A stretch of DNA of 64,000 nt from a bacterium (GCA_003245715.1 QKCJ01000019.1:3119-67118), one strand, 5' to 3'. Positions 24,481 through 39,896 are shown, numbered from the stretch's first letter. Numbers and translations are program-made. The notes: generated by a model not told the origin, from the letters alone.

Positions 24481-26097
24481 ATGTCTATGTTTTGTTATCA
24501 ATGCGAACAGACTGCCGGTTGCAAGGGCTGCAGCGGAAATGCCGGCGTATGCGGCAAGCAGCCAGATACGGCCACTGTTCAGGACTTGCTAAATGAAGTT
24601 GCCAAGGGAGTTGCCTGGCTGGCGGTGAAGTCCGGCTCTACGGATAAAAAAGTTTTTTATTTTCTCGTGGACGCGCTTTTTACAACGGTAACCAATGTCA
24701 ATTTCGACGCACAAAAAGTTCTTGAGCTGGCACAGGCAGGAGTTGCAATTCGCCAAAGCCTTGGAGCTGTTCCGGCTGATGCTCCGGCCTGTTGCAGCGC
24801 AACCACACCGGCAACTGTCACAGACGCGGCAATCGAAGGTGAAAAGTTCTCAATTGCCAAGCGCAAGGAAAAATACGGCGATACTGTTGCGGGTCTGCAG
24901 GAACTTATTTTCTACGGCCTCAAGGGTGCTGCCGCCTACATTCATCATGCCCGCGTACTCGGCTATACCGATGAAACCGCCAACAAAAAGTTTGCAGATA
25001 TCCTGGCATTTCTGGCAGAGCAACCGACAGACGTAAACGAACTTTTAGGCAAAGCACTGGCAACCGGTGAAGTCAATTTCTCGGCAATGGAAGTGCTGGA
25101 CAAAGCTAACACCACTACCTACGGCCATCCCGAACCGACTGAAGTTCTCGTAACTCCGGTCAAGGGCAAGTGTATCCTTGTCTCCGGCCATGACCTCAAG
25201 GATCTTGAAGCGCTGCTCAAACAGACCGAGGGCAAAGGCGTCAATATCTACACCCACGGCGAAATGCTGCCGTGCCTTGCCTACCCCGAACTGAAAAAGT
25301 ATCCGCATCTTGTCGGTAACTACGGCGGCGCCTGGCAGGATCAGGTCAAAGAGTTCAACGCCTTTCCCGGCGCGATCCTGATGACAACTAACTGCATCCA
25401 GAAACCGTCCGATTCCTACAAGGCGCGCATCTTCACCACCGGGCTTGTCCAGTGGCCGGGCGTGACCCATATTGATGACAACAAAGATTTCACACCGGTA
25501 ATTGACGCGGCTCTTGCAGCAGAAGGATTCACTGAAACCGCACCAGAAAAGAAAATTACCATCGGCTTTGCGCGCAACACCGTCATGTCTGTTGCCGGTA
25601 CCGTTATCGACGCGGTAAAGGCCGGAGCAATCAAACACTTCTTCCTGATCGGCGGTTGTGATGGCGCCAAGCCCGGGCGTAACTATTACACCGACTTCGC
25701 CCAGCAGGTTCCGCAGGACTGCGTAATCCTCACCCTCGCCTGTGGCAAGTACCGTTTCAACAAGCTTGATTTCGGCAATATCGGCGGCGTACCGCGCCTG
25801 CTTGATATCGGCCAGTGCAACGACGCCTACTCGGCCGTCAAGATCGCACTCGCTCTGGCTGAAGCCTTTAACTGCGGCGTGAATGACCTTCCGCTCTCAC
25901 TGGTACTGAGCTGGTACGAACAAAAAGCCGTCGCGATACTTCTGTCACTACTCTACCTCGGCGTCAAGAACATCAAACTCGGTCCAACCCTGCCAGCCTT
26001 TGTAACCCCAGAGGCACTTGATGTATTGGTTAAAGAATTCAATATCGCGCCTGTAACCACACCGGAGCAGGATCTGGCGGAAATTCTCGGTAAGTAA
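24481..26097 (+). CDS. hcp: Hybrid-cluster protein / hydroxylamine reductase
   Basis: 538 aa. The N-terminal MFCYQCEQTAGCKGC motif is diagnostic of Hcp. GGAAGAGGAGGAAG RBS. Confidence 0.96.
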   Translation: MSMFCYQCEQTAGCKGCSGNAGVCGKQPDTATVQDLLNEVAKGVAWLAVKSGSTDKKVFYFLVDALFTTVTNVNFDAQKVLELAQAGVAIRQSLGAVPADAPACCSATTPATVTDAAIEGEKFSIAKRKEKYGDTVAGLQELIFYGLKGAAAYIHHARVLGYTDETANKKFADILAFLAEQPTDVNELLGKALATGEVNFSAMEVLDKANTTTYGHPEPTEVLVTPVKGKCILVSGHDLKDLEALLKQTEGKGVNIYTHGEMLPCLAYPELKKYPHLVGNYGGAWQDQVKEFNAFPGAILMTTNCIQKPSDSYKARIFTTGLVQWPGVTHIDDNKDFTPVIDAALAAEGFTETAPEKKITIGFARNTVMSVAGTVIDAVKAGAIKHFFLIGGCDGAKPGRNYYTDFAQQVPQDCVILTLACGKYRFNKLDFGNIGGVPRLLDIGQCNDAYSAVKIALALAEAFNCGVNDLPLSLVLSWYEQKAVAILLSLLYLGVKNIKLGPTLPAFVTPEALDVLVKEFNIAPVTTPEQDLAEILGK

Positions 26098-26122
26098 ATA
26101 AAAACCCAAGTCCAATAAAAAA

Positions 26123-26152
26123 AGCGGCAGGGATAATCCCCGCCGCTTTTTT
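26123..26152. terminator. Bidirectional terminator between convergent hcp and the Tad-locus terminal gene
   Basis: gcggcaggg / ccccgccgc stem (one mismatch), preceded by an A run and followed by a T run (aaaaaagcggcagggataatccccgccgctttttt). Confidence 0.8.
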
Positions 26153-26179
26153 GTTTAAATTCATCAGTTAAAATAATTC

Positions 26180-28168
26180 CTATTCCTGATTAACTTTTCT
26201 TACGGCAATATTATTTTTACGCATCCACGCATCAATCCTGCCATAGAAATCATCCTCGGGAGAAAAGCAATCGCGCCCGTCATTTACCAATTTGTGCGCC
26301 ATGGAGTATTCTTTATTGATGTAAGACTGCACACCTTTGTTAAAGAGGATATTCCCTGTCTTATGCAGCGCGCCCAAGGCGTTTTTGACATCAACACCAT
26401 AATTCTTGGCTTTCTCAAGTAACGCTCTAGACAAGCGGTAATTCTCCCGGTTCATCGCCTTGACCGAAGCCTCCATCATCATCTGCCCCATCACTTCCGG
26501 CGGATACTGCTTGAGTTTGGTGACGGCATACTCGCGGTAACGATTGTCAGGATCTTTCTCGGTAAGAAGCATCACATTCCAGTGCTTCAGGGCACTCTCG
26601 ATATCGCCATCGTTCTCAATCTTATCGGCGATACCTTTTTCCTTTTCCATCTCAGCCCAGCGGCGCAGGATATCTTTGACTACTGCGTTATCCTTGTAAT
26701 GCGCATTATTCTGCAGCAGCTTATCCCTGCCAACCGTGTCGCCGTTACGATACAACGTCCCCATCTGCACGACAAAATGCCGAGCATTCAGATCGCTCAG
26801 GATTCCCGGAATTTCCGCCAGCACATCCGGATCATCAGGAAACCTCTGACTCAGGCTTTTAGCTATCAGCCGCGCAGAATCAATCTCGGCAGCACTCACT
26901 GACTCATGCGAAAGTTTGCGCACCTTGCGCAGTTCAACCTGAATATACTGCTTGTCACGCCAACTATTAAGCTTCTCAGCCAGCACCATATCCTTGCCGT
27001 TATGACCGAAAAACTCTTCCGCCCGTTTTATTGCCAGCGAATAATTACCGGATTTTGCCGCCGATTCCGCCTCCAGCTTTATCGCCACCAGACGGTCTTC
27101 ATTGACCTTGCTTATCATCCGGTTTACCGAAGGATAATACAGACTGTCAGGCGAGACCTTATTGTAAGCGGCAATCGCCTCTTCCCACTTATGGTCAAGC
27201 ATGAGATTATTGGCCTCGGAAAAATAACCTTTGGCCTTGATCTCTTTACGCAGACCCTTCTCAAGATCAATTGCAAAATCACGCAACTCAATTGTCAGGA
27301 TATTGGAATCAACAAGCTGGAGCAGTTTAAGCCTCAGGTCATTCCAGTCAGTTGAGGGATCAATCGCCGAACCGATTTTAGAATCATAATAAGGCTGGGC
27401 GACCTGAACAAAAAGCTTGCCTACACGCATCCGGTTGCCACTGGCTTTTTCATAACTCTCCTCGCCCTTCTTCCAGATGGCGATTGATGCCTTATAATTA
27501 CCAAGGCGAAAATCTTCAGAACCATTTACCATCTCTTTCCAGTATTTATCTTCAGGAGAAATACGGTTTCGCACCCGCGCCGCATCCGCGCTCTTCCCCA
27601 TATCCTTCAGATAAACCCAGGCAACCAGACCAAAGATCACCGCCAGCATCCCGATAAGTATCGGCAGACGTTTTTTCTCTACCGGTGCAGGCGGCTGAAC
27701 AACGCCACCGCCCACCGGACTGACCGGCGCCCGGAAAACTTCAACTGAATTAGCCGGTTCGGATTCATATTCGGCAAGGGCATATTCCCCGCCTTCTGAA
27801 GCCGGTGCCGGAGCAGGGGCGAGATCAAACTCATCGCCTGAAGCTTGCGGAGGCGGGGGCATATCAAAGCTGCTCAAGGCCGGCGAACTGTCCTCGATTG
27901 AAACGTACATGTTGCCAAGGCGCAACGTGTCACCATTTCCCAGATGCCCCTGGGTAACTTTCTTTCCATTAAGCACAGTCCCGTTACGGCTGAGAAGGTC
28001 ACGGAAACTTATCTCCTCAGCAGTAACGTCAATACGGATATGCTGCCCGGATATTGACGGGTCACGGATTACAATATCACAGTTTTTCGATCTGCCGATT
28101 ATGTAGTTGCCTTCCGTCAGATCCTTTGTAATGTTCTCACCATTGAGGTTATAACGCAACTTAATCAT
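26180..28168 (-). CDS. Bitopic FHA-domain protein with a large TPR-like extracytoplasmic domain; last gene of the Tad locus
   Basis: N-terminal FHA (IIGRSKNCDIVIRDPSISGQHIRI...LSRNGTVLNGKKV), Pro-rich linker, TM segment LPILIGMLAVIFGLVAWVYL, then about 470 aa with repeated xNYxxAI helical motifs. I prefer ATG 28168 (AGAGG RBS; ATGATTAA overlap with the upstream stop) over the GTG at 28192. Confidence 0.8.
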   Translation of the reverse strand: MIKLRYNLNGENITKDLTEGNYIIGRSKNCDIVIRDPSISGQHIRIDVTAEEISFRDLLSRNGTVLNGKKVTQGHLGNGDTLRLGNMYVSIEDSSPALSSFDMPPPPQASGDEFDLAPAPAPASEGGEYALAEYESEPANSVEVFRAPVSPVGGGVVQPPAPVEKKRLPILIGMLAVIFGLVAWVYLKDMGKSADAARVRNRISPEDKYWKEMVNGSEDFRLGNYKASIAIWKKGEESYEKASGNRMRVGKLFVQVAQPYYDSKIGSAIDPSTDWNDLRLKLLQLVDSNILTIELRDFAIDLEKGLRKEIKAKGYFSEANNLMLDHKWEEAIAAYNKVSPDSLYYPSVNRMISKVNEDRLVAIKLEAESAAKSGNYSLAIKRAEEFFGHNGKDMVLAEKLNSWRDKQYIQVELRKVRKLSHESVSAAEIDSARLIAKSLSQRFPDDPDVLAEIPGILSDLNARHFVVQMGTLYRNGDTVGRDKLLQNNAHYKDNAVVKDILRRWAEMEKEKGIADKIENDGDIESALKHWNVMLLTEKDPDNRYREYAVTKLKQYPPEVMGQMMMEASVKAMNRENYRLSRALLEKAKNYGVDVKNALGALHKTGNILFNKGVQSYINKEYSMAHKLVNDGRDCFSPEDDFYGRIDAWMRKNNIAVRKVNQE

Positions 28169-29453
28169 GATTGCCTCTGTTTCTTCTGACACTCTTTATT
28201 CGTTTTAAATTTATAATCCAGTTCTCAATCACCTGACGGTCAACACTCTCCTCATCCGGGATAATTGTCTTCGCTTCCTCAAGCAGCACAACCGCACTAT
28301 CAAGATCTGATGACCTGAAATTATTATCCGGCGGGAAGGCCGCAGCCATTGCTTCATCAAAGAGAGCGCAAAGCCTGTCCTTTAATTTCGCTTTCAAATT
28401 AAATGCCTCGACCGCTGCGTTACCACCACGCTCGGCATCCGCTGCCGGACCGTTATAAAGATCAGCCGCGCGCTGATACTGAACCCACGCGTCATATTCC
28501 TGCTTATCCTTGGCAAACCGTTGCGCCTGCGCCAGAGCGCTTTCCGCAAGCCGCCTGGCCTCCTCACGGGTTATGTCATCGGGTATACGGTAAGGGTTTA
28601 CACCTCTGCAGATAATCCTGAATGAACGCAGGAAATTACCTGCTTTATCCTGCAAGATCACCTTGGCTTCACCTTCCCTCGCGCCGGTTATCTCAAGCAT
28701 CCTGACCTTGGCGGTATTGGGATTTTTCTTGAGCCGCTCAAGGCTGGGCAGCAATAAGCCGCGGTAATCTTTTGCACGGATAATCTCCTGCTGCGACCCG
28801 GTGCTGCTGAGAATTTTGTAACGGTCAAAATCAACTGCGAAATTAACCACCTTCGGCTGATACGCCTTGACCATGGCAAACACCGTATTAGGGCGCGGGG
28901 AATTTGAAACATAATCAAAGAGATATATAACCCCGAAAATAAAAAGTACAAAGGCCAGGAGCTGGAAGAGAACACTCTTGCCCCCGTCAATACCGCTGCC
29001 AAGATCACCTGAAACCTGCACCGTCTGACCCGGCGCTGCCGGAACGCCAAGAGGCATATCCGGGCGCACCTGGCCAAGCTCTCCCGGAGGTGGCGTGTCA
29101 AAACCCGGCGCCGCGGCAAAAACCGTTGAACCAGTTGTCGCCAAAGCCCCGCCAATGGCCGCACGCACAATAAAAATCGCCTCACCTACCTGGAAGGTAA
29201 CCCCCGGCTCACCGATTGCCTCCTTGACCTTTTTGCCATTAACCTGCACCCCGTTCTGGCTGTCAAGGTCTACCATCCGCAAACCCTGCGCGTCGTTGAA
29301 AACCCGGCAGTGATTGCGCGAGACGCCCCGGACATTCTCAAGGCGTATCCCGCACTCAGCCGCGCGGCCAATAAGTGCCGACTCGCCCTGAATGTTATAA
29401 CAGGTACCGGCATCCGGCCCCGTGGTCAACTCCAGATAAAATTCATTCATCAT
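28161..29453 (-). CDS. Bitopic FHA-domain protein (cytoplasmic FHA, one TM segment, extracytoplasmic domain of unknown fold)
   Basis: FHA domain (ALIGRAAECGIRLENVRGVSRNHCRVF...LDSQNGVQVNGKKV) and TM segment VLFQLLAFVLFIFGVIYLF. The probable start is MMNEFYLEL (ATG 29453). The track ORF starts at a TTG (29489). Confidence 0.8.
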   Translation of the reverse strand: MMNEFYLELTTGPDAGTCYNIQGESALIGRAAECGIRLENVRGVSRNHCRVFNDAQGLRMVDLDSQNGVQVNGKKVKEAIGEPGVTFQVGEAIFIVRAAIGGALATTGSTVFAAAPGFDTPPPGELGQVRPDMPLGVPAAPGQTVQVSGDLGSGIDGGKSVLFQLLAFVLFIFGVIYLFDYVSNSPRPNTVFAMVKAYQPKVVNFAVDFDRYKILSSTGSQQEIIRAKDYRGLLLPSLERLKKNPNTAKVRMLEITGAREGEAKVILQDKAGNFLRSFRIICRGVNPYRIPDDITREEARRLAESALAQAQRFAKDKQEYDAWVQYQRAADLYNGPAADAERGGNAAVEAFNLKAKLKDRLCALFDEAMAAAFPPDNNFRSSDLDSAVVLLEEAKTIIPDEESVDRQVIENWIINLKRIKSVRRNRGNHD

Positions 29454-29541
29454 TTGTTCCTGTATTTTTATTTCCCGTGCAGCAACCAAAAGAACTTGTC
29501 TTACTGCACCGCCGCAAGCTGTGATAAATCACCCGGACACA

Positions 29542-29940
29542 TCATCTCAGGTTATTATTTTCCACACACCCGGCGGCTCTGAGTTCTGCACCAACCGTCA
29601 GCCCCGTCCTTGCCACACGCCCCGCCCTCAACTCCAGAACAGAATACGCCGCAAAGCATCCCGCCAGCCGCCAGGGCTTTAAATTCTCATATATTTTCAG
29701 AACTCTCAGCTCTCTTGAAAGAAACACCGCATCAATTGCAAAACGCATAAAAAACATATGGATACTGTTACACGGAACTATCAGTAATCCGCCATCCTCA
29801 TCCAGACCGTCACGGCCAAGCAGCCCCCGCATCCGGCTCAACGGATTATCCGCCACCTCAAGGTGTGAAAGCACAACCTCCGCACCACACATTAAACCCG
29901 CGCCCCTGAGCTTTGCCGGGTCAATCCGGAAAGCCGACAT
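29542..29940 (-). CDS. DUF192-family protein
   Basis: 132 aa. VADNPLSRMRGLLGRDGL...GLLIVPCNSIHMFFMRFAIDAVFL...LKPW matches my recollection of the DUF192/COG1430 pattern. The start lies 1 nt after the tadC stop. Confidence 0.7.
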   Translation of the reverse strand: MSAFRIDPAKLRGAGLMCGAEVVLSHLEVADNPLSRMRGLLGRDGLDEDGGLLIVPCNSIHMFFMRFAIDAVFLSRELRVLKIYENLKPWRLAGCFAAYSVLELRAGRVARTGLTVGAELRAAGCVENNNLR

Positions 29941-29941
29941 T

Positions 29942-30880
29942 CTAGCCCTTCCACATCAGAAAGATCGGCGCACCAATAATCACCACAATCGCCCCAAGGA
30001 TAAAGATCATAGGAAACAGCATCTTCACCGGCGCTTTCATCGCCTTCTCCTCGGCAATCTGACTGCGCTTCTCCCGCTGCTGTGCCGCCTGAATGCGCAG
30101 AACCACACCAAGTGATGAACCAAGCTCTTCCGCCTGAATCAGACTCGCCACAACCGTGCGCACCTCCTGCACGTCACAGCGCTCGGCAAAATCACGCAGC
30201 GCGTTTGATCTGGTTTTGCCAAGCTGGATCTCATGCAACATCAATGACAACTCCTGCCCCAGCGGACTCTTGCCGATCTTGCCGACAATCCGCGACAGCG
30301 CCGAGGTAAAATCCAGCCCTGCCTCCATTGCCAGCGTCAGCAGGTCGAGCGCGAACGGCAGTTGCCTTACGATACTTGTCTGGCGCAGACGAAGCTTATT
30401 GGTCAGCCAGCTCTTCCAGAGAAGCGTGCCGAAGATGAAAATAATAAACGCAAAATAAAGACCGGCAAATGATGTAACCGTCTCGGGTGACAGCATAAAG
30501 ACACCGGTCATCACCAGAGTCGTAAAGAGCATCCCGTAAAGTATGCCAAAACCGATAAACTCATCCGCGATCAGCCCCTCCGGACGGCCAGCAGCGACCA
30601 GCGTCCGCTCAATGCCGTCAGAAAAGCGGAAATAAAAAGTCGAGTTATTATCCCCGTGAAAAATCCCGCGTAGTGATCTGCCAATAACCCGCGCCATCGG
30701 CAGAAAGGATTTCATCAAACCCTCAGAGGTTTCAGTAACAATTATCTCATCATCCGCGCCCTGCTTCTGCGCTTTATAAATCCTGTGCAGAAAATGCACC
30801 AGCAGCCAGCTTGCAAAAAAGGCAAACCCGGCAGATGCCAGAATAATAAAAAACGGACTGGAAATAAATATCGCCTGCAT
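29942..30880 (-). CDS. tadC: Tad pilus inner-membrane platform protein TadC (T2SS-F family)
   Basis: 312 aa polytopic protein. LRQLPFALDLLTLAMEAGLDFTSALSRIV...LSLMLHEIQLGKTRSNALRDFAER is T2SSF-domain-like. It follows tadB. Confidence 0.85.
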   Translation of the reverse strand: MQAIFISSPFFIILASAGFAFFASWLLVHFLHRIYKAQKQGADDEIIVTETSEGLMKSFLPMARVIGRSLRGIFHGDNNSTFYFRFSDGIERTLVAAGRPEGLIADEFIGFGILYGMLFTTLVMTGVFMLSPETVTSFAGLYFAFIIFIFGTLLWKSWLTNKLRLRQTSIVRQLPFALDLLTLAMEAGLDFTSALSRIVGKIGKSPLGQELSLMLHEIQLGKTRSNALRDFAERCDVQEVRTVVASLIQAEELGSSLGVVLRIQAAQQREKRSQIAEEKAMKAPVKMLFPMIFILGAIVVIIGAPIFLMWKG

Positions 30881-30919
30881 CTGAACTTTCTATAAACCCG
30901 GCAGCACACGGCCGCGTTT

Positions 30920-31780
30920 TTAAATATCGATATTGATGATCTTGCGGATGAAAAACGCCGCCAGACCAATCAGACCACCGGCAAGAAAGAGCGCAATCCA
31001 CCCCTTCCATGTATGGAAGAGTGACTCAAACATAGCCGGCGCCACAAAATACAAACCGATACAAATCGCCACCGGCAACAAGCCCATGACAATCCCCTGA
31101 AGTTTTCCCTGCGCGGTCAGCGCCCTGATCTTGCCTTCAATACGCTGCCTCTCACGGATAAGCTGCGCGATATTATCGAAGACTTCCGTCAGGTTACCAC
31201 CGACATCACGGATAATTGAAATCGCCGTCACCACCAAATCCATATCATCAGACGGCATCCGCTTGTATAAATTAAAGAGCGCCTCCTCAACCGGCACACC
31301 AAGTCGCATCTCCTGACAGACCAGCCGCATCTCCTGATTCATTGGCTTGGGCATCTCACGGCTGATAAGCTCCAAAGCCTGCGGCAGTGAAAAACCCGCG
31401 CGCAGACTGTTACTCATATTCATCAGCGCATCCACAAGCTGCACCAGAAATAACTGGTCGCGCTTCTTCTTTAAAAAATTAAGCACAATCCGCGGCAGAA
31501 GATTGCCGAAAATGAAAAACGGAATCCCCACCAGCAGGTTACCGCTGATATAGGCAAAAAGCGCAAAAAGTACCAGTCCGCACATAAATCCAAGATACAG
31601 AATATTCTGCGCCGGCATATTAATGTACATCGAATCAAGCGTAGTCGCAGCGCCAGAGAGATAATTCTGCTGGTACTGCTGCCAGAAACGGCGCACCATG
31701 AAGATTCCGGCAAAGACCAGAATCGACCCGGCAACACCAGCACAGAGCAGCGCTATGGTTTCATGCGACAGACCAAACAT
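30920..31780 (-). CDS. tadB: Tad pilus inner-membrane platform protein TadB (T2SS-F family)
   Basis: 286 aa. LVDALMNMSNSLRAGFSLPQALELISREMPKP...EMRLGVPVEEALFNLYKRMPSDD is T2SSF-domain-like. The start shares 1 nt with the ATPase gene end. Confidence 0.85.
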   Translation of the reverse strand: MFGLSHETIALLCAGVAGSILVFAGIFMVRRFWQQYQQNYLSGAATTLDSMYINMPAQNILYLGFMCGLVLFALFAYISGNLLVGIPFFIFGNLLPRIVLNFLKKKRDQLFLVQLVDALMNMSNSLRAGFSLPQALELISREMPKPMNQEMRLVCQEMRLGVPVEEALFNLYKRMPSDDMDLVVTAISIIRDVGGNLTEVFDNIAQLIRERQRIEGKIRALTAQGKLQGIVMGLLPVAICIGLYFVAPAMFESLFHTWKGWIALFLAGGLIGLAAFFIRKIINIDI

Positions 31781-33435
31781 CAGCCTTCTCTTTCTTTAAA
31801 CATACTAAGGTCAACTTCAAGCCCGCGCTTGCGCATCTCCTGGACAAACTCAGGAATCTCGCCGGTCGCAGTATGATAACCCATCACCTTGCCCTCTTCA
31901 TCATAACCTTTCTGGCGGAATTCGAAGATATTCTGCAGGGTAATCACATCCCCCTGCATCCCCGTCACCGCCGAGACATGCGTGATCTTACGGCTGCCAT
32001 CAGCAAGACGCGCTGCCTGCACGATAAAATCAACCGCACTTGAAATCTGCTCGCGGATAGCCTGCGACGGCAACTCCATACCGGCCATCAGAACCAGCGT
32101 CTCCATACGCGAAAGCGCGTCTCTTGGATTATTGGCGTGCAGCGTGGTCAGTGATCCGTCATGACCGGTGTTCATCGCCTGCAGCATGTCAAGCGCCTCA
32201 CCGCCACGACATTCACCAACCACAATCCGGTCAGGCCGCATACGCAGACAGTTCTTGACCAGATCACGGATATTAACGGCGTTACGCCCTTCAAGGTTGG
32301 CCGGACGGCTTTCAAGGCGCACCACGTGCGGCTGCTGCAGCTGCAGTTCGGCCGAGTCCTCAACCGTGACAATACGTTCATCATGCGGGATGTAATTACT
32401 CGTAACATTAAGCAGCGTCGTCTTACCGGAACCGGTACCGCCGGAGATAACAATATTTGCGCGGTTCTTCACCGCCAGCGCCAGAAAATCGGCCATCGGC
32501 CTTGTCATACTGCCGAAATTAATCAGGTCATCAATGCGAAACGGAGTAGTCGCAAATTTTCGGATAGTCAGCGTCGGCCCCGACAGTGCCAGCGGTGGAA
32601 TAATCGCGTTGACACGACTGCCGTCAGGCAGACGCCCGTCAGCCATCGGCGTCGTCTCATCAATACGCCTACCGATCGGCGAAAGAATCCGGCGGATAAT
32701 GGAAACGACCTGCATGTCATCGGTAAACTGTTTTGACGATAGCGCGATCTTACCGTGTTTTTCAACATAAACCTTGTCCCACGCACAGACCATGATTTCA
32801 TCAACCTCAGGATCAGCCAAAAGCTCCTCAAGACAGCCAAGGCCAACCGCCTCGTCAACGATCTCCTTAACCAGCGCCTCCTGCGTCAGCCAGCCGGGAA
32901 GGGCGTGCGCGTACTCCTGAATAATTTTGCTGCAGACCTCAGTCGTCCGCAGGCGTAACTCCTCAAGCGAGCGCTGTGACATATCCTGCCGCTTGAGATC
33001 CATCCGTTCAATCAATATCGCGTGGATCTGCCGCTTGAGATCAACCGGCGTAACCAGACGCGGCTTATTCTCAACCGGCGGTTTTGGCTTGGGTTTTGCC
33101 GCAGGCTGGGGCGGGATACTGTTACCGCCACGTCCCGCATCACTGGCGCCAAGACGGATAATATAATTACCAAGCTGCAAAGAACAGCGCGGATCAAACA
33201 GCGTCGGACGGTCTATGCGGTGCCCGTTTATCAGCGTACCATTGCGGCTGCCAAGATCATGCACCGCGATCTTGTCACCATGGCGGCGGATCTCACAGTG
33301 ATTGCGGCTGACAGCTTCATCATCAAGAACTATCAGGTTGGCACTGTCCTTGCCGATACTGACCACTTCACCCGAAAAATCCACTGTCCTGGCCTGACCG
33401 CTCCTGCGGTCGGTAACCGTTATTACATCAGACAA
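31780..33435 (-). CDS. FHA domain fused to a CpaF/TadA-type secretion ATPase
   Basis: 551 aa. N-terminal FHA ([51 protein letters not shown]), linker [18 protein letters not shown], then an ATPase with Walker [15 protein letters not shown], Walker B-like [12 protein letters not shown] and the His-box region [15 protein letters not shown] start preceded by AAGGGG. Confidence 0.9.
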
Positions 33436-33477: not shown

Positions 33478-34272
33478 TTACTCAGCCGGGCGCAGACCCT
33501 TGAAATCCTCAGACAGGTCCCAATAAACATTAGGCTTCTGATACTCTTTCTCGCTGGGATCAAGCCCTTCAACCATCTTGGTCTCCGAAGGATTACGCAG
33601 AATCATCTGCAGCTGGATACCCGTGCGGCTGCCCTGCGCGTTGACCAGACGAAGCGCATCCGCCGGACGCAGCTCAAGGGTGACAGTCCTGTACATCCGC
33701 TTGTCAAAACGCGATTCATCCGCCTGCAGAATCTGGTTGTCAATAGCCAGAACCTTCGCCGCCTGCAGCAAATAATAACTCTTGGTGTAATCCCTGATTA
33801 TCTTGTCATCCTTCTTGACCGTACCGCCGGTGAGGACAACGTCGACATAATCACCGGGACGAATAAGTCCGGCCACACCCGCTACATTATCAACCCGGAT
33901 AGTCACCGCCCGCATTCCCGGCTGTACAGCCAGACGCGCCAGGCTCGCTTCTTTTTTGACATTAGTCATGAACTCTTCAAAGACCGGTCGTTTCGGGTCA
34001 AGATCACGCGAAGCAGTCTTGCCGAAAAAACGGTAACGCTCAACATAAGGGATCATACCCTGAACAACATAATCCTTGGGAATCATAACCGGCATACAGT
34101 CGCGGCTCTTAAGCGGCTCTCCACGATTGACTTTATTACGCACAGAGAGTATCTGCACCGGATCGGTCTTTTGCATGTGTTCGATCTTCTGCTCATTCAT
34201 CCAGCTATATACGCCAATTGCCGCAATCGCTCCAAGAGTCACCGACAATACCAATGCTAGTTTTGTGTTCAT
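33478..34272 (-). CDS. cpaB: Flp pilus assembly protein CpaB/RcpC family
   Basis: 264 aa. N-terminal TM segment LALVLSVTLGAIAAIGVYSW, a SAF-like segment (ILSVRNKVNRGEPLKSRD) and the RcpC-like GDYVDVVLTG motif. Position upstream of the ATPase gene. Confidence 0.8.
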   Translation of the reverse strand: MNTKLALVLSVTLGAIAAIGVYSWMNEQKIEHMQKTDPVQILSVRNKVNRGEPLKSRDCMPVMIPKDYVVQGMIPYVERYRFFGKTASRDLDPKRPVFEEFMTNVKKEASLARLAVQPGMRAVTIRVDNVAGVAGLIRPGDYVDVVLTGGTVKKDDKIIRDYTKSYYLLQAAKVLAIDNQILQADESRFDKRMYRTVTLELRPADALRLVNAQGSRTGIQLQMILRNPSETKMVEGLDPSEKEYQKPNVYWDLSEDFKGLRPAE

Positions 34273-34292: not shown

Positions 34293-34787
34293 TTACTCTT
34301 TAACCAACGGTACCGTAACAATACTTACCCGGAAATGGCTTCCTTTATCTGCCGGGAAAACCTGTAACGCCAGACTGAGATTGCCCAGCCTGTACATATC
34401 ACTCAAAGCCCCCGATCCCTGCGGCAACTTATTATTATATTTTTTCCACCCTGCTTTAGCAAGCTCAGTCTCATAGAATGCGCTAATTCTTTGCATTGGC
34501 AGTGGACTTGTGCATAAAAGCTGCAATCTTCTGGCGCCATTATCCTTGCCCCGCTCAAGCCGGCTGACCACACTTGTCTGCGGCGGCAGAAGAATCTCCT
34601 GCCAGTTAAAGTCCCTGGCCGCATCCTTTACAGCCTCCGCAACCACACCCTGAGAACCGCCGCCTGAATACATGCGCAAACCCAGACCGGAAGCCATATA
34701 CTCCCTGCCCAATAAAACAATACAGACAGCCCCCGCAAAAAAAGCAATGGCTGTCAGTGTTTTTACTGTTTTTTTACCAATCGGCAT
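34293..34787 (-). CDS. Hypothetical N-terminally anchored protein inside the Tad locus
   Basis: 164 aa. TM segment LTAIAFFAGAVCIVLL. No motif I recognise. Co-directional and tightly spaced with its neighbours. Confidence 0.55.
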   Translation of the reverse strand: MPIGKKTVKTLTAIAFFAGAVCIVLLGREYMASGLGLRMYSGGGSQGVVAEAVKDAARDFNWQEILLPPQTSVVSRLERGKDNGARRLQLLCTSPLPMQRISAFYETELAKAGWKKYNNKLPQGSGALSDMYRLGNLSLALQVFPADKGSHFRVSIVTVPLVKE

Positions 34788-34807: not shown

Positions 34808-35719
34808 TCACCAATTCGGCGAATTAACCGAACTACCATGCAACACACCCACATCAACATAAGAACCGTCTATTTCACTGCTGGTCAGGGATGACGGAGC
34901 AACCGCACCGGCGGAAGTCTTATAAATGGTTGCCAGAGCAGATGAAAGCGAACTGACATCATCACCCCAGTCGCGCATATAGGGATTGTTTATTACCGCC
35001 CAGAAAGAACTCACATCACGCGGAAAAACCTTTATCCCCTCCTCCGAGCGCCAGGTCTGGGAGGTTGAAACCTTGCTCTCAAACGGCAAACGCCCACGCC
35101 CCAGAGGAAGCGCGTAGGAATAATTCGCCGTCGAGCTTTTATAATCTATCCAGTCGCCAAGAGACACCGATATCTGCGGCAGCACATCATCCTCATCAGT
35201 TATGTCAACGGAAATATCATCGCCCTCATTATACACTGTCGAGGTATCAAGATTCCCCATCAACCCCAACTGTGCTATCCGGCTTCCCGCCTGCGTACGC
35301 CTGACCTTATAGCCGCCTGAGCTGCTGTCAAAATACACCTGCGTTCCCGAAAGTTCAAACGCCCTCTGCATATCATCACCATTGCTGTCATAAGGCAAAA
35401 CCGGTTCATCATCCTCAGTAATACCCGCAACACTGTTGAAGTCTTCTTCATTGTCATAGGTAACCTGATCGCCGACGTAAGCCATACCCTTCATCTTCCC
35501 GAAGAAATATTCCGATTTCAGGCTCGTATCATTGAGTGTACTGCTGGTTGTAAAATACTTCACCGCCTCCTGCTTACCGGCAACCAGATGCCAGAAGAAG
35601 ATCGCCCCCATGATAATCAGAATATAGGGCAGCATGCAGATAACCAGTTCAATTAGAGCTGTCCCCTGATTGTTCTTCATTTGTCCTGTCCTTATATTCA
35701 AACCACTACCTCTGACCAT
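34808..35719 (-). CDS. TadE/TadF-like pseudopilin with a long C-terminal extension
   Basis: N-terminal QGTALIELVICMLPYILIIMGAIFFW fits the TadE-like signature (G-x-x-x-x-E followed by a hydrophobic helix). Start uncertain: TTG 35725, ATG 35719 or ATG 35680. Confidence 0.7.
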   Translation of the reverse strand: MVRGSGLNIRTGQMKNNQGTALIELVICMLPYILIIMGAIFFWHLVAGKQEAVKYFTTSSTLNDTSLKSEYFFGKMKGMAYVGDQVTYDNEEDFNSVAGITEDDEPVLPYDSNGDDMQRAFELSGTQVYFDSSSGGYKVRRTQAGSRIAQLGLMGNLDTSTVYNEGDDISVDITDEDDVLPQISVSLGDWIDYKSSTANYSYALPLGRGRLPFESKVSTSQTWRSEEGIKVFPRDVSSFWAVINNPYMRDWGDDVSSLSSALATIYKTSAGAVAPSSLTSSEIDGSYVDVGVLHGSSVNSPNW

Positions 35720-35721
35720 AA

Positions 35722-38700
35722 TCAATGACGCACCAGAGAATCATAAATACGGTTTTGCCAATTGAGACTCTTCCCGTTGTTTGTTCCCTGCTGCGGCGGC
35801 GCGGTGATATTATTCCACGAATTATTTGCCTGCTGGCTCTCATAAGACCAGGCATTATCCTTGGTATAGGCATTCTTCATCCAGCCGTCACGCTGCGAGT
35901 GATAATGATATCTCGCCGCCTCGGTATATTTATTGATAAGATAATCAGCAGGCGAGTTGATATCTTCGACCGTTTCTTCATACGGTTCAACATCACGCAC
36001 AAAGAGCGAGGTGTTAATCGGCACCATCTGCGCCGCCCAAACCGTCTCAAAAAGATTATAGCTGCTAGCCAGCCACTTCTGGCGGTAACCACGCATTTCA
36101 TAATTGGTAATCTGGTCAATTCCGTCAGGGTAGCCAATTGCCGCATTAGCCAGATCGCACGCGCCAGCCTTCAGATCCGACGGAAAGAGATTGTCATCAT
36201 AGTAGGCAAAATTAGTCAGATAGCCACCATCATCAGGCGCACGCATAAAGACCCGCGACGCAGCAAAGGCAAAATGCCCCGAGTTCCATTTATACTTGTT
36301 GCCATCCTCAGTCAGATAAAGCGGATTACCCTGGCCGATATCTTTTCTTTTCTGCGATATATCATCCCGGTTTCTGCCAAGCAGCGGCGCCAGCCAACCC
36401 ATACGTTCGGACTTGAAGACGCAGACAGCCAGAGGCTTGCGGAATACCTGCGTTGTAAGCTCAAGCGGTTTTGCATAGATGGAACCGAATTTCAAAGTTG
36501 AAATTGTCGTTCCCATACCGACATGATCATTTAAAAATCCGGCCGTGCTGGCAGTACTCGCAAGCCAATTGGCCCCGCCGTGATAGGCATACCTGCGCAC
36601 CACTGCCGGAGCAACTTTGATTAGCGCTTTCATCTGCTCCCAGGTCGGGCCGGTTCCGGCAGCGTCAGCAGCATAAAAGTCTGCAGAGGCCAGATCCGGA
36701 TTGACTGAAATAAACGGATATTTCGGCTGATGCTTGAACATTGCAACCGCACCATACGGATCATAGATACACAAATAAACCACACCGCTATCAACATATG
36801 CGAAGAACGGCCTGGTTATGGTCACGCCTTCATCGATAGTTATTAAATCCAGCTTATCAACATTCATCAGCGCATAGATCTTTCTGCGCAAATCAGCAAG
36901 CTGCTCGTCAGCAAGATTTGTATACTTGGCAATAACATAAAAACCGCAAGAATCCTTATTGCCGCTGCTGATGGCAATCCCGGCATTGATATCCGAGTCA
37001 TCATCATGCTCAGGCGTAGCAGTCGTTGTCAGACTGCGGTAAAGATTCCAGAGCGGATTATCAGAAAGATGATAAGCAATATCTGAGAGTGTGCCATAGC
37101 GGTTATTGTAAAGATCAACCAGAGTGTCGCCGGTGCAGATGCGGCGTTTGAGATACACCGTACCATCAACATTAACCCCCGGGTCATAACTTGACTTCGC
37201 TGTCACCGAATAGGTATACGCACTCGTCCCCCCGTCAGCCTTGCCGTCACCATTGATATCGCTGTTAGCCAGCTGACCCGTACTCAGGTCAAAGAAGCCT
37301 CCAAACCCGCCACTGGCTGTAGCTTCATAATTGCTGCGCGGTGTTCTTGGCGGACAGGCCCAGAGAGCGCCGTTATTAAGTAAAAGATCCCAGACACTCT
37401 TCCCAAACTCCTGCCAGAGGGTATTATCGCTCTTCCAGTTGTCAAGCAGTGTCGAATTATCATCGCGCGGATTATACTGCCTCGGCACAGACGACACCGG
37501 CACATACCCCTCAAGAAGCGAGTCACTGAGAATTTTTTCATGCACCAGCCCGCGCAGTCCAAGCTTGAGAAAACTCATATCCTGCATCCAGCTGCCACTG
37601 TCTGAAATTTCATACTTCCAGCGCCCGTCATTGGTCAGCGTCGCATCAGGATATTCAAAAATCCTGTGCTCGCGCCGCCCCTGGTTGCCAGTAAGCGAAC
37701 GCCAATTACGGCTCGGACTGGAAGTCGTCAAACCCCTGACCCATGCCTCAACATCATCCGCCCTGATCCAGCCGATTGCGCTGTTAAAATGATAATGCAC
37801 TACCAGCGAATTGTTGAAAGTGGCATAAACTTTACCGCTCAGATACATCTCAAAAGGCCAGCTCAAGCGCATGCCGCTGATATAACCCGGAAAAGACGCC
37901 GGCACAGTAAGCCCGTTAATTGTCACCGAACCTTCATAGCTTGTGTCATTGACACTGAAATTACCATCATCATCAAGCTCATATTTATCACCGTCAATAA
38001 TACTGCCGGTATCAGTCTTCTCAACCACATCCCGCGCATCCGTACCACTGCCGCCACCAGGAACATAACTCCCCGGCTCAACCACCACCATCACCACCGT
38101 ACCGCCATCACTCTCGGCGTAGGTGGTTATCTTATAATCTTTTGAATTGATTGAAAACTCATACTCACCCGAGCAATAAACCGTACCCTTGTATTTTGTC
38201 GCCCCCGAAACGCCGCTTGCTTTCTTAAAGGGCGAATAGTCTGTGGACTTTATCGTCGCATCAAGCGTATTACTGCTGGAACTACCGTCACTGTCCACAC
38301 TGTCAGGCTCATCAAGAAGAATATGCCACTCATTGTAAGTCCCGTTATCAGCTACAGACTTGTCAACCACTACGTGCAGCATCTCCATGGAGTATCCCGG
38401 ATCTGTTTCACTCGTTACCTTCCAGCCCTTGCTGCTTGATAATGTCGAAGGGTTAAGCTCCAGAACCGCGTCATGAAATGAGCCGCCCTCAGGATAAAAT
38501 TCCCAGGCGGAATTTCCACTGTCGCCGGGGTTGGGAAATATCGCAATACGCAAAGGCTTGTTGACACTGCCGCTCTCGGGTTTCTGAAAATAATTTGCAT
38601 GCGCAGACTGATAGACCTGATTCTTAATCAGCATCGGCGCGGCAATGGCAATCAGGCGCTGCGCCTTAATCAGGTGCATATACCACTCTTCACCATTACT

Positions 38701-39209: not shown

Positions 39210-39896
39210 CTAGTCTTTATAATTATAAACATCCGACCCCGGCGCCGTATCAATATCAGCCTCACGCTTCATGATATGCTGCCTGGTTATCAGATAATGC
39301 ACCAGATCATGACCTTTTTTCGATTTTAAGACTTCAATCCCGCCATTACTCTCAGACGCACCCGCAAAGTTGCGCCCCTGCGTCGTGTCAACCTTGGACT
39401 GCGGCAGAACCATCTGCATAACCCTGTCAACCACCGGGATCAGCAGTTCCTGTTTAAAGGTCAGTCTGGTGATTATCAGCTCCTGCGTACCGATTTCATC
39501 CGAATCAAATGTCAGACTGATCTTCGCCGCCGCCACACCACTGCCCCGCAGGTAGCCCCAGCCCGGGATATAAATATTTTCACTACTTTCACCGGCGATA
39601 CCGTGAAAGGCCAGCGGAGAGAGGGTGATCTGCGCAACCGGTTTGATATATTCCTCAAGCGAGTATGACGTTGAACCGACCGTTACCTTCTGTGAAGAAT
39701 TGTAATTGACCAGCGCCGCGCGCGCGCAGCGGTAGGTGGCAAAATTGACAACCAGCGAGGAGGCCATCAAAAGCATTATTTGGATCAGCCCGAAGGTGAT
39801 AAATAACTGAAATGGGAAAACGACGGCAAACTCAGCCAAAGCCTGTCCGTCGCTTTCCGTCTCTGTGAAAAAATTCCTCAGCTTACCAGCTATCAT
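39210..39896 (-). CDS. tadE: TadE-like pseudopilin
   Basis: 228 aa. DGQALAEFAVVFPFQLFITFGLIQIMLL is a canonical TadE-like N-terminus. Confidence 0.8.
   Translation of the reverse strand: MIAGKLRNFFTETESDGQALAEFAVVFPFQLFITFGLIQIMLLMASSLVVNFATYRCARAALVNYNSSQKVTVGSTSYSLEEYIKPVAQITLSPLAFHGIAGESSENIYIPGWGYLRGSGVAAAKISLTFDSDEIGTQELIITRLTFKQELLIPVVDRVMQMVLPQSKVDTTQGRNFAGASESNGGIEVLKSKKGHDLVHYLITRQHIMKREADIDTAPGSDVYNYKD

What the first reader, a model, noticed from the sequence alone, without database searches (positions are those of the whole stretch)
26180..29453. Two overlapping genes for bitopic FHA proteins close the Tad operon, as possible stand-ins for TadZ/TadD
Both proteins have the layout cytoplasmic FHA, Pro-rich linker, single TM, extracytoplasmic domain. 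The 430-aa protein has a domain of unknown fold. The 662-aa protein carries at least six TPR-like helical repeats (GNYKASIAIW, HKWEEAIAAY, GNYSLAIKRA, GDIESALKHW, ENYRLSRALL, KEYSMAHKLV).

TPR content outside the membrane is what TadD/CpaD provides in classical systems. FHA-TM scaffold proteins have precedents in other envelope-spanning machines, namely the T3SS YscD family and the FHA protein of type VI systems.

The two genes overlap by 8 nt (ATGATTAA), implying translational coupling and fixed stoichiometry.
Basis: inference. Interest (0 to 1): 0.6.

Follow-up and report, generated by a model that had tools for sequence, protein, structure and literature searches.

The report
FHA membrane pair ending Tad operon
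Two membrane proteins, each with a phosphothreonine-reading (FHA) domain inside the cell and a large domain outside it, are a conserved but unstudied part of a Tad pilus machine widespread in planctomycetes, and probably link protein phosphorylation to pilus assembly.

Summary
Two minus-strand genes (28161-29453, 430 aa; 26180-28168, 662 aa) overlap by 8 nt (ATGATTAA). Each encodes an N-terminal FHA domain, a disordered linker, one TM helix and an ectodomain.

The long ectodomain is predicted with high confidence as an all-alpha solenoid. It is TPR-like, but Pfam TPR models stay below threshold in this protein. The short ectodomain is a beta domain plus a helical bundle, and its fold was not identified.

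The pair is not a local oddity:
- TadB-TadC-(DUF192)-short FHA-long FHA follows an FHA-fused CpaF in 28 planctomycete loci.
- In 9 loci a Hanks Ser/Thr kinase follows directly. This genome lacks it there.
- Both proteins keep the canonical pThr-binding residues.
- A TP[V/P][D/E] motif recurs in the linkers of the long proteins and of CpaF. Here it is CpaF T129-P-V-D.

Best reading: these are inner-membrane accessory subunits of a Kil-like Tad machine that use phosphothreonine docking. The closest described analogues are Myxococcus KilD and MXAN_4648/4649.

A TadD (pilotin) role is unsupported, and a TadZ-like organiser role is plausible but untested. I rate it a new variant of a known kind, of moderate interest.

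The parts
26180..28168 (-). FHA2 gene (P0001, 662 aa): FHA, linker, one TM, TPR-like ectodomain
   Evidence: ORF and translation. Pfam FHA 62.3 bits. Ten full-length homologues at 32-61% identity, and a wider family of 172 cluster representatives.
27884..28168 (-). FHA2 cytoplasmic FHA domain (residues 1-95) with canonical G25-R26, S40-x-x-H43, N62-G63
   Evidence: Foldseek TM-score 0.76-0.87 (normalised to the target) to FhaA/Rv0020c and CT664 FHA domains. These residues are at least 90% conserved across 60 family members.
27668..27883 (-). FHA2 disordered Pro/Ala-rich linker (residues 96-167). It contains no Thr. It holds the invariant V144-F145-x-x-P148 (VEVFRAP at 27725-27745).
   Evidence: pLDDT below 50 over residues 95-169. 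Invariant columns. Linker comparison.
27599..27667 (-). FHA2 single transmembrane helix (residues about 168-190)
   Evidence: Mean hydropathy 2.37 over 19 residues, and the only such segment. The same holds in all homologues.
26183..27598 (-). FHA2 periplasmic all-alpha, TPR-like solenoid (residues 191-662)
   Evidence: AF2 pLDDT about 90 with roughly 20 helices. Weak TPR-type Foldseek matches. Pfam TPR hits in relatives but below threshold here. No PDB sequence relative.
28161..29453 (-). FHA1 gene (P0002, 430 aa): FHA, linker, one TM, ectodomain
29154..29453 (-). FHA1 cytoplasmic FHA domain (residues 1-100) with G29-R30, S45-x-x-H48, N67-G68
   Evidence: Foldseek E 1e-9 and TM-score 0.84-0.91 (normalised to the target) to GarA, OdhI and FhaA FHA domains.
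28983..29153 (-). FHA1 disordered linker (residues 101-157), containing D-T120-P-P-P-G-E (29079-29099)
   Evidence: pLDDT below 50 over residues 101-159. Sequence.
28905..28982 (-). FHA1 single transmembrane helix (residues about 158-183)
28605..28883 (-). FHA1 periplasmic beta-rich domain (residues 191-283), fold not identified
   Evidence: AF2 gives 7 strands and 1 helix at pLDDT about 76-90. No PDB or Pfam relative.
28173..28568 (-). FHA1 periplasmic five-helix region (residues 296-427)
   Evidence: AF2 pLDDT about 90. Conserved AFP and PDE-S-x-x-x-Q motifs. Unrelated to the FHA2 ectodomain (hhalign probability 1.3%).
28161..28168 (-). 8-nt overlap ATGATTAA between the FHA1 stop and the FHA2 start
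   Evidence: Not conserved in relatives.
26118..26152 (.). Bidirectional intrinsic terminator between FHA2 and the convergent hcp gene; it marks the operon end
   Evidence: Hairpin of -25.8 kcal/mol, z = -6.1, flanked by an A run and a U run.
29542..29940 (-). DUF192 gene, conserved between tadC and FHA1
   Evidence: Pfam PF02643, 79 bits. Present at this position in most related loci.
29942..31780 (-). tadC (29942-30880) and tadB (30920-31780) platform genes
   Evidence: Pfam T2SSF.
31780..33435 (-). FHA-CpaF motor ATPase. Its FHA has GK in place of GR. T129-P-V-D (33040-33051) sits at the junction of the linker and the helical bundle.
   Evidence: The FHA-CpaF architecture is 'class III' CpaF in PMC12019362.
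33478..34272 (-). cpaB/rcpC
   Evidence: TIGR03177, 146.9 bits.

Best explanation
FHA1 and FHA2 are two inner-membrane accessory subunits of a Kil-like, 'FHA-type' Tad (type IVc) pilus machine found widely in Planctomycetota.

Shown:
- Both genes are conserved terminal members of the operon cpaB, FHA-cpaF, tadB, tadC, DUF192, FHA1, FHA2.
- Each protein has an N-terminal FHA domain with an intact pThr-binding triad, a disordered linker, one TM helix and a folded C-terminal domain.
- Related operons carry a Hanks Ser/Thr kinase immediately after FHA2.

Inferred:
- The FHA domains are cytoplasmic and the C-terminal domains periplasmic.
- A Ser/Thr kinase phosphorylates a Thr in a machine component. 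The kinase is encoded in the operon in sister lineages. Here it would be one of the unlinked kinases behind the genome's 19 kinase-domain matches.
- The two membrane-tethered FHA readers dock on that pThr. This recruits or licenses the FHA-CpaF motor at the TadB/TadC platform.
- The periplasmic domains form a scaffold next to CpaB, or sense the state of the envelope.

Speculative: the docking site is the recurrent TP[V/P][D/E] motif. In this genome that is CpaF T129-P-V-D. In most other lineages it also occurs in the linker of the long FHA protein.
For: Synteny:
- The arrangement tadC, usually DUF192, a short FHA-1TM protein and a long FHA-1TM protein occurs in 17 distinct loci recovered through FHA2 homology.
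- It also occurs in 11 of 13 independently chosen FHA-CpaF loci that my FHA2 ectodomain profile had not detected.
- Flanking genes differ between loci (Memo, AraC, hcp, kinase, FapA), so the conserved unit ends at FHA2.
- A strong terminator follows FHA2. The 88-nt DUF192-FHA1 spacer has no terminator-like structure.

FHA domains:
- Pfam hits, AF2 models and Foldseek matches to bona fide pThr-binding FHA domains.
- GR / SxxH / SxNG is kept in 18 of 24 short and 18 of 24 long proteins by a crude regex.
- These residues are at least 90% conserved in a 60-member alignment.

Kinase link:
- A Hanks kinase lies directly downstream of FHA2 in L019, L020, L021, L089, L099, L101, L104 and L124, and 0.7 kb downstream in L111.
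- The five full-length kinase sequences inspected (L019, L021, L089, L101, L104) have no TM segment.
- Four of them (L019, L021, L101, L104) were scanned against Pfam. All four show a sub-threshold PilZ-like region and two a weak winged-helix-like match.

Motif:
- TP[VPAMLI][DE] occurs in 16 of 29 long-protein linkers (shuffle mean 1.0; 0 of 2000 shuffles reach 16).
- It occurs in 8 of 21 CpaF linkers (shuffle mean 0.3) and in 0 of 25 short-protein linkers.

Precedent: the Myxococcus Kil Tad-like system has FHA-CpaF (KilF), KilD (FHA+TPR, required for killing, recruited to the machine) and MXAN_4648 (FHA+TPR) and MXAN_4649 (FHA) next to the platform genes.
Against: - There is no experimental or transcript evidence.
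- No kinase gene sits in this operon, and tblastn found no homologue of the operon-linked kinase's C-terminal region in this genome.
- The FHA2 linker of this genome has no Thr at all, so the best-supported motif is absent from the protein under study.
- The CpaF FHA has Lys in place of the phosphate-binding Arg in 27 of 31 loci.
- Motif statistics use shuffles that ignore relatedness of the sequences.
- The positive-inside rule is ambiguous around the FHA2 TM. Topology rests on the absence of a signal peptide and on FHA biology.
- Two homologues (L091, L010) are not next to Tad genes.
- No interaction between FHA1, FHA2, CpaF, TadB/C or CpaB was computed.
Confidence: 0.55

Rival explanations
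1. Phosphorylation-independent structural ring. As in T3SS SctD (YscD/PrgH), the FHA folds would be passive docking modules for the cytoplasmic motor, and the ectodomains would oligomerise into an inner-membrane or periplasmic ring around the Tad platform.
For: - The layout FHA, TM, periplasmic domain is the same as in SctD.
- Pfam Yop-YscD_cpl hits are above cut-off (59.5 and 43.7 bits against 33.2).
- Foldseek matches YscD and PscD cytoplasmic domains.
- This genome has no kinase in the operon, and the FHA2 linker has no Thr.
Against: - The canonical pThr-binding residues are conserved. From my own knowledge of the YscD/PrgH structures, they are lost in SctD.
- The top structural matches are true pThr readers (FhaA, GarA, OdhI).
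- Kinase genes are adjacent in 9 relatives.
- The TIGR02500 SctD score is far below its cut-off (23.4 against 86).
- The ectodomains are not ring-building alpha-beta-beta-alpha-beta motifs.
Confidence: 0.15
2. The pair would functionally replace TadZ (organiser of the motor) and TadD (TPR pilotin for the secretin).
For: - No ParA/TadZ-like or secretin gene lies in cis in 6 FHA-type loci.
- None of the 3 AAA_31 hits in this genome lies on the Tad contig.
- The FHA2 ectodomain is TPR-like.
Against: - There is no homology to TadZ.
- FHA2 has no signal peptide or lipobox, and its TPR-like domain is tethered to the inner membrane.
- There is no cognate secretin to pilot. The 3 secretin genes lie on other contigs, in open frames of 899-1346 aa.
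- The TadZ part overlaps with my best explanation. The TadD part has nothing specific in its favour.
Confidence: 0.12
3. Outside-in sensor pair. The periplasmic domains would sense an envelope or surface cue and pass it to the cytoplasm, where the FHA domains recruit kinase or phosphatase to regulate the pilus or other targets. They would not be structural parts of the machine.
For: - The ectodomains evolve fast while the FHA domains and the architecture are kept. The profile finds only 12 of 401 genomes, whereas about 55 of the listed matches are FHA-CpaF type (my count from that list).
- Kinases are adjacent, with PilZ-like tails.
- KilD foci form on prey contact independently of the core Tad proteins.
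- Two homologues lie outside Tad loci.
Against: - Operon linkage with the platform genes is strict in 28 loci.
- No recognised ligand-binding domain is present.
- A single-TM protein with a roughly 70-residue disordered linker is a poor conformational transducer unless it works by clustering.
Confidence: 0.15

Closest known systems
Myxococcus xanthus Kil Tad-like system accessory proteins: KilD (MXAN_3108, FHA+TPR), MXAN_4648 (FHA+TPR), MXAN_4649 (FHA), with KilF (FHA-CpaF). Source: PMC8460266.
   Same: - The motor ATPase carries an N-terminal FHA domain.
- One FHA-only and one FHA+TPR protein are encoded directly beside the TadB/TadC-type platform genes.
- No TadD is present.
- The authors likewise suspect a phospho-signalling role.
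- A Bdellovibrionota MAG (L023) has tadC, DUF192 and three FHA genes, which links the two arrangements.
   Different: - KilD is described as cytoplasmic. Here a TM helix separates FHA from the TPR-like domain, so that domain is periplasmic.
- Kil has its own secretin (KilC). This operon has none.
- Kil genes are split over two clusters.
- Sequence homology beyond the FHA domain could not be tested, because no M. xanthus sequences were reachable.
T3SS inner-membrane ring protein SctD (YscD/PrgH)
   Same: Cytoplasmic FHA fold, single TM and a periplasmic domain. It is part of an envelope-spanning machine. Pfam PF16697 matches.
   Different: - SctD FHA domains lack the pThr-binding residues (my own knowledge). 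Here they are intact.
- The SctD periplasmic part consists of ring-building motifs. Here it is an alpha-solenoid (FHA2) or a beta domain plus helical bundle (FHA1).
- The TIGR02500 score is below its cut-off.
- No T3SS genes are nearby.
T6SS threonine-phosphorylation pathway (PpkA kinase, PppA phosphatase, Fha1/TagH)
   Same: An FHA protein reads a Hanks-kinase mark to trigger assembly of a secretion machine. The Kil authors cite it as the model.
   Different: - Fha1 is soluble.
- TIGR03354 scores 44 bits against a cut-off of 120.
- There is no T6SS context.
GltG of the Myxococcus Agl-Glt gliding machine (PMC11761067)
   Same: A bitopic FHA protein with long disordered segments, one TM helix and a periplasmic domain. 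It tethers an inner-membrane motor to periplasmic parts. Its FHA domain is predicted to bind a TPR protein.
   Different: - The periplasmic domain of GltG is TonB-C-like.
- NF033760 scores 39.9 bits against a cut-off of 650, matching only the FHA domain and the start of the linker (residues 23-150).
- The machine is different.
Class III CpaF (FHA-IDR-3HB-NTD-CTD), PMC12019362
   Same: The motor of this operon has this architecture.
   Different: That paper reports class III mostly in Betaproteobacteria, and the passages I read (those mentioning FHA) name no membrane FHA partners.

Membership tests
FHA domain (PF00498) | Profile match above the curated cut-off | tested here: met
   62.3 bits (FHA2) and 43.9 bits (FHA1) against a cut-off of 20.7.
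FHA domain (PF00498) | Conserved pThr-binding residues (Gly-Arg, Ser-x-x-His, Asn-Gly) | tested here: met
   FHA2 has G25 R26, S40 H43, N62 G63. FHA1 has G29 R30, S45 H48, N67 G68. They are invariant in the alignments and at least 90% conserved in 60 members.
FHA domain (PF00498) | Beta-sandwich fold matching solved FHA domains | tested here: met
   Foldseek TM-score 0.76-0.91 (normalised to the target) to FhaA, GarA, OdhI and CT664.
FHA domain (PF00498) | Binding of phosphothreonine peptides | not testable with these tools
   This needs ITC or a pull-down with synthetic pThr peptides.
T3SS SctD/YscD/PrgH | Equivalog model TIGR02500 above its cut-off | tested here: not met
   23.4 bits against 86, covering the FHA region only.
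T3SS SctD/YscD/PrgH | Periplasmic ring-building (alpha-beta-beta-alpha-beta) domains | tested here: not met
   The FHA2 ectodomain is all-alpha. FHA1 is a beta domain plus five helices.
T3SS SctD/YscD/PrgH | Encoded with T3SS core genes | tested here: not met
   The neighbours are Tad genes.
TadD pilotin | Signal peptide with a lipobox (outer-membrane lipoprotein) | tested here: not met
   The N-terminus is the FHA domain itself. The single hydrophobic segment lies at residues 168-190.
TadD pilotin | TPR repeats | tested here: inconclusive
   An alpha-solenoid by AF2, with TPR-type Foldseek matches at low TM-score. Pfam TPR_2 scores 15.8 bits against 27 here, although 18 of 60 relatives match TPR_2 at E <= 0.001.
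TadD pilotin | Partnered with an RcpA/CpaC secretin in the locus | tested here: not met
   No secretin lies on the window's contig. The 3 secretin genes are on C20 and C54. There is none in cis in 5 of 6 related loci.
TadZ/CpaE | ParA/MinD-type ATPase domain | tested here: not met
   Neither protein shows such a hit.
TPR superfamily | Pfam TPR model above its cut-off in this protein | tested here: not met
   The best hit is TPR_2 at E = 0.015 and 15.8 bits.
Kil-type Tad accessory FHA proteins (KilD, MXAN_4648/4649) | FHA-only plus FHA+TPR proteins encoded beside TadB/TadC homologues, in a system with FHA-CpaF | tested here: met
   for this family. for Kil.
Kil-type Tad accessory FHA proteins (KilD, MXAN_4648/4649) | Sequence homology outside the FHA domain | not tested
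The A3 profile did not hit the Bdellovibrionota L023 FHA proteins.
Kil-type Tad accessory FHA proteins (KilD, MXAN_4648/4649) | Cytoplasmic location of the TPR part (as described for KilD) | tested here: not met
   A TM helix lies between FHA and the TPR-like domain in all planctomycete members examined.
T6SS TagH/Fha1 (TIGR03354) | Model above its cut-off | tested here: not met
   44 bits against 120.25.
GltG (NF033760) | Model above its cut-off | tested here: not met
   39.9 and 21.2 bits against 650.

The most novel reading that the evidence does not exclude
In a large, unnamed class of Tad machines (Planctomycetota, with Kil-type relatives in Myxococcota and Bdellovibrionota), a phosphothreonine docking network would do the organising job that TadZ does in ordinary Tad systems. 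A Hanks kinase would write pThr on a short TP[V/P][D/E] motif: CpaF T129 here, and in other lineages also the linker of the long FHA protein. Two membrane-tethered FHA readers would then capture and license the motor at the platform. Their periplasmic TPR-like and beta/helical domains would build the trans-periplasmic part of a machine that has no dedicated secretin.
Probability: 0.25. Interest if true: 0.75.

Novelty: new variant of a known kind. Interest (0 to 1): 0.5.

Why it matters
How Tad pili are switched on and how the bifunctional CpaF motor is brought to its platform is understood only for TadZ-containing systems. For FHA-CpaF ('class III') motors and for the Kil system, the role of the many FHA proteins is an acknowledged gap.

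This family offers a compact writer-reader-motor set that can be compared across lineages:
- a kinase that is present in some lineages and absent in others;
- two readers with intact pThr pockets;
- a candidate docking motif.

Peptide-binding, two-hybrid and point-mutant experiments can test these directly. The family also bears on how planctomycetes build a trans-envelope pilus without a locus-encoded secretin.

Tried and rejected
A1 was used instead.
- The word-based search restricted to the FHA1 ectodomain found only one relative.
- Foldseek on the full-length FHA1 model returned only FHA hits in the 50 rows shown, so the ectodomain fold could not be read out. No prediction quota remained for a cropped model.
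- Profile searches of both ectodomains against PDB sequences gave nothing below E = 0.17.
- hhalign of the two ectodomains shows they are unrelated, so I rejected the idea that the pair arose by whole-gene duplication.
- The promoter/terminator consensus scan over 25900-30100 found nothing above chance and missed the real terminator. I found that terminator by eye and confirmed it by folding.
- I tried to contrast these loci with canonical planctomycete Tad loci carrying TadZ and a secretin. Adjacent secretin and ParA-like genes exist in several Planctomycetota genomes but are not next to CpaF genes, so no contrast can be claimed.
- I looked for an orthologue of the operon-linked kinase in this genome. 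The best kinase-domain match is 42% identical (C31:171883-172683), and the C-terminal region has no match, so no orthologue is assigned.
- An apparent link between loss of the kinase and loss of the Thr motif in the window's clade was not pursued. The linker alignment is unreliable, and L089 has the kinase without the motif.

Full report
**1. What is in the sequence**

The minus strand of the window carries one Tad/Flp locus. Pfam and NCBIfam identify its genes:

| Coordinates | Gene |
|---|---|
| 40027-40644 | Peptidase_A24 prepilin peptidase |
| 39210-39896 | TadE-like |
| 35722-39129 | 1135-aa TadG-like |
| 34808-35725 | second, weakly TadE-like |
| 34293-34787 | unassigned 164-aa gene |
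| 33478-34272 | CpaB |
| 31780-33435 | FHA-fused CpaF |
| 30920-31780 | TadB |
| 29942-30880 | TadC |
| 29542-29940 | DUF192 |
| 28161-29453 | FHA1 (the finding) |
| 26180-28168 | FHA2 (the finding) |

- Spacings from TadG to FHA2 are -4, 20, 20, 42, -1, 39, 1, 88 and -8 nt.
- A hairpin of -25.8 kcal/mol (z = -6.1), flanked by an A run and a U run, lies at 26118-26152. It is the only strong terminator-like element after tadC and separates FHA2 from the convergent hcp gene.
- The 88-nt spacer before FHA1 folds no better than shuffled sequence (z = -0.57).
- This is indirect support for co-transcription.

**2. Anatomy of the two proteins**

- Both proteins start directly with an FHA domain, above the Pfam cut-off.
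- Each has exactly one strongly hydrophobic segment: FHA2 at about 168-190 and FHA1 at about 158-183. The same is true of every homologue examined.
- AF2 models built on family alignments give:
  - FHA2: pLDDT 81 overall and about 90 in the ectodomain, which is roughly 20 helices over residues 205-651. The linker 95-169 is disordered.
  - FHA1: pLDDT 75, with a seven-strand beta domain at 191-283 followed by five long helices at 296-427. The linker 101-159 is disordered.
- Foldseek matches both N-termini to genuine pThr-binding FHA domains (FhaA/Rv0020c, GarA, OdhI, CT664, DgcB), with TM-scores of 0.76-0.91 normalised to the target.
- For the FHA2 ectodomain only weak TPR-type matches appear: P58IPK, designed CTPR proteins, LapB, Tom70 and a flagellar periplasmic scaffold chain.
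- In this protein Pfam TPR models stay below threshold (15.8 bits against 27). Among 60 relatives, 18 match TPR_2 at E <= 0.001. 'TPR-like alpha-solenoid' is therefore justified, but 'six TPRs' is not demonstrated.
- The FHA1 ectodomain has no detectable relative in PDB sequences or Pfam. It is unrelated to the FHA2 ectodomain.
- Topology (FHA inside, C-terminal domain periplasmic) is inferred from the missing signal peptide and the single TM. The charge distribution around the FHA2 TM does not decide it.

**3. How widespread, and in what company**

- The word-based search found only 10 full-length FHA2 relatives and 2 FHA1 relatives.
- An ectodomain-only profile searched against 1.8 billion cluster representatives found 172 proteins at E <= 0.001, 47 of them at E <= 1e-10. 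Nearly all are 630-750 aa with the match in the C-terminal two-thirds. In the 60-member alignment drawn from this set (59 hits plus the query), 59 of 60 carry an FHA domain.
- All named members and loci are Planctomycetota MAGs.
- Every context with enough sequence shows the same order: TadB, TadC, usually DUF192, a short FHA-1TM protein of 366-433 aa and a long FHA-1TM protein of 616-753 aa. That makes 17 distinct loci.
- What follows FHA2 differs between loci: Memo, AraC, hcp, FapA or a kinase.
- Two exceptions exist. L091 lies next to a sulfite reductase gene. In L010 no FHA1 precedes the gene.
- In an even sample of 401 Planctomycetota genomes the profile hit only 12. By my count from the listed matches, about 55 are FHA-CpaF orthologues aligned from residue about 5 at more than 50% identity.
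- I fetched 20 of those profile-negative loci. Of the 13 with tadC and at least 3.5 kb downstream, 11 carry the same short and long FHA-1TM pair. Two have a single FHA-TM gene. Four loci are split after cpaF or tadB.
- So the architecture is conserved while the ectodomain sequences diverge quickly, and the pair is a regular part of the planctomycete FHA-CpaF type of Tad locus.
- The refutation condition 'homologues mostly away from Tad loci' is not met.

**4. The kinase link**

- In L019, L020 and L021 (25-27% identical FHA2), and in L089, L099, L101, L104 and L124, a Hanks Ser/Thr kinase gene follows FHA2 directly. In L019 the two genes overlap by 4 nt. In L111 the kinase lies 0.7 kb downstream.
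- The kinases of L019, L021, L089, L101 and L104 are clearly orthologous in full length; the L020 gene is cut by the contig end.
- The five full-length sequences inspected (L019, L021, L089, L101, L104) have no TM segment.
- Four of them (L019, L021, L101, L104) were scanned against Pfam. All four show a consistently sub-threshold PilZ-like region (15-22 bits against 22.5), and two also show a weak winged-helix-like match.
- The window's genome has a single Tad system and 19 Pkinase-domain matches (some may be pieces of one gene), none of them in the operon. tblastn found no homologue of that kinase's C-terminal region.

**5. FHA pockets and a candidate docking motif**

- Across about 30 loci, a crude regex finds GR / SxxH / SxNG intact in 18 of 24 short and 18 of 24 long proteins. 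Most of the rest are regex misses.
- The CpaF FHA carries GK instead of GR in 27 of 31 loci.
- The linkers of the long proteins share two short motifs:
  - [DE]x-T-P-[VPAM]-[DE]-x-x-F-x-P;
  - closer to the membrane, V-[EQ]-V-[FV]-x-P.
- TP[VPAMLI][DE] occurs in 16 of 29 long linkers (shuffle mean 1.0; none of 2000 shuffles reaches 16). It occurs in 8 of 21 CpaF linkers, at the start of the helical bundle (shuffle mean 0.3). It never occurs in 25 short-protein linkers.
- These shuffles ignore relatedness, so they overstate significance. The loci do, however, span many families with otherwise unalignable linkers.
- pT-x-x-D/E is a known FHA ligand preference (my own knowledge, for example Rad53 FHA1).
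- In this genome:
  - the FHA2 linker contains no Thr at all, and the first motif has decayed to DEFDLAPAP;
  - VEVFRAP is retained;
  - CpaF carries T129-P-V-D;
  - FHA1 carries D-T120-P-P-P-G-E.
- The motif is therefore a lead for the family. For this genome it points to CpaF as the ligand. This step is speculative.

**6. Comparison with what is known**

- FHA-CpaF is 'class III' CpaF in the 2025 cryo-EM paper, reported mostly from Betaproteobacteria.
- The Myxococcus Kil Tad-like system is the closest described analogue:
  - KilF is FHA-CpaF.
  - KilD (FHA+TPR) is needed for killing and is recruited to the contact site.
  - MXAN_4648 (FHA+TPR) and MXAN_4649 (FHA) sit next to the platform genes kilH and kilG.
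  - The authors suspect a T6SS-like phospho-cascade but leave it open.
- A Bdellovibrionota MAG (L023) shows tadC, DUF192 and three FHA genes. The last of these has two FHA domains and no TM. It bridges the two arrangements.
- The planctomycete version differs in three ways:
  - a TM helix lies between FHA and the TPR-like domain, so that domain is periplasmic;
  - the locus has no secretin;
  - DUF192 is regularly present.
- SctD, TagH/Fha1 and GltG resemble these proteins in logic, but none of their models reaches its cut-off.
- Neither TadZ nor TadD features are present.

**7. Verdict**

- The 'TadZ/TadD stand-in' reading is partly supported at most. An organiser role is possible. A pilotin role has nothing in its favour.
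- The best-supported mechanism is pThr-dependent docking by two membrane-tethered FHA readers that belong to the machine.
  - Confidence that they are Tad-associated inner-membrane proteins: about 0.9.
  - Confidence that they act through pThr binding: about 0.55-0.6.
  - Confidence that CpaF T129 is the ligand: about 0.25.
- Against the literature this is a new variant of a known kind (Kil-type, FHA-rich Tad machines).
- Earlier notes of this scan describe similar kinase/FHA-wired Tad operons in other genomes. I read them only after reaching this view, and they are not independent evidence.

Noticed in passing
L019:4240-5835; L021:9834-11396; L101:12307-13908; L104:5032-6564: The kinase that follows FHA2 in relatives is a Hanks kinase with no TM segment. 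Its C-terminal region gives a consistent sub-threshold PilZ-like hit (15-22 bits) in all four, and a weak winged-helix-like match in two (L101, L104). This hints at a c-di-GMP input.
   Followed up: partly
window 33040-33051 (CpaF T129-P-V-D): A TP[V/P][D/E]LK motif sits at the junction of the CpaF linker and the helical bundle. It recurs in 8 of 21 FHA-CpaF orthologues and resembles the motif in the linkers of the long FHA proteins.
   Followed up: partly
window 33270-33360 (CpaF FHA) and orthologues: The CpaF FHA domain has Lys in place of the phosphate-binding Arg (GK instead of GR) in 27 of 31 loci. The two membrane FHA proteins keep GR.
   Followed up: partly
window 26118-26152: A strong bidirectional intrinsic terminator (-25.8 kcal/mol) lies between FHA2 and the convergent hcp gene. 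The consensus scan missed it.
   Followed up: yes
L023:6653-13134: A Bdellovibrionota MAG carries tadC, DUF192 and three consecutive FHA genes. The third has two FHA domains and no TM. Prepilin peptidase, cpaB, a 727-aa CpaF and tadB lie further downstream.
   Followed up: partly
L102:12083-13636: In one relative a FapA-family gene (flagellar assembly protein A beta-solenoid) directly follows FHA2, in the place where other lineages have the kinase.
   Followed up: no
L091:6219-8183: An FHA-TM-TPR-like homologue (profile E = 1e-18) lies away from any Tad gene, divergent from a sulfite/nitrite reductase gene.
   Followed up: partly
L092, L093, L096, L103, L106, L108, L113, L116 (long-protein linkers): More distant long FHA proteins carry an extra conserved element, RDG-x-WFLRD-x-x-TG-x-E-V/I-E-I-V-P, in the cytoplasmic linker. 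L097, L111 and L122 have a second FHA domain there.
   Followed up: no
G000:C54:56799-60043 and G000:C20:18161-18643: The genome's only three secretin genes lie on other contigs, in open frames of 899-1346 aa. Two are in tandem on C54. Their long N-terminal parts looked coiled-coil or TPR-like to me by eye (not scanned). Which one, if any, serves the Tad pilus is unknown.
   Followed up: no
window 29542-29940 and related loci: DUF192 sits between tadC and the FHA pair in most FHA-type Tad loci, including the Bdellovibrionota one. This suggests it belongs to the same module.
   Followed up: partly
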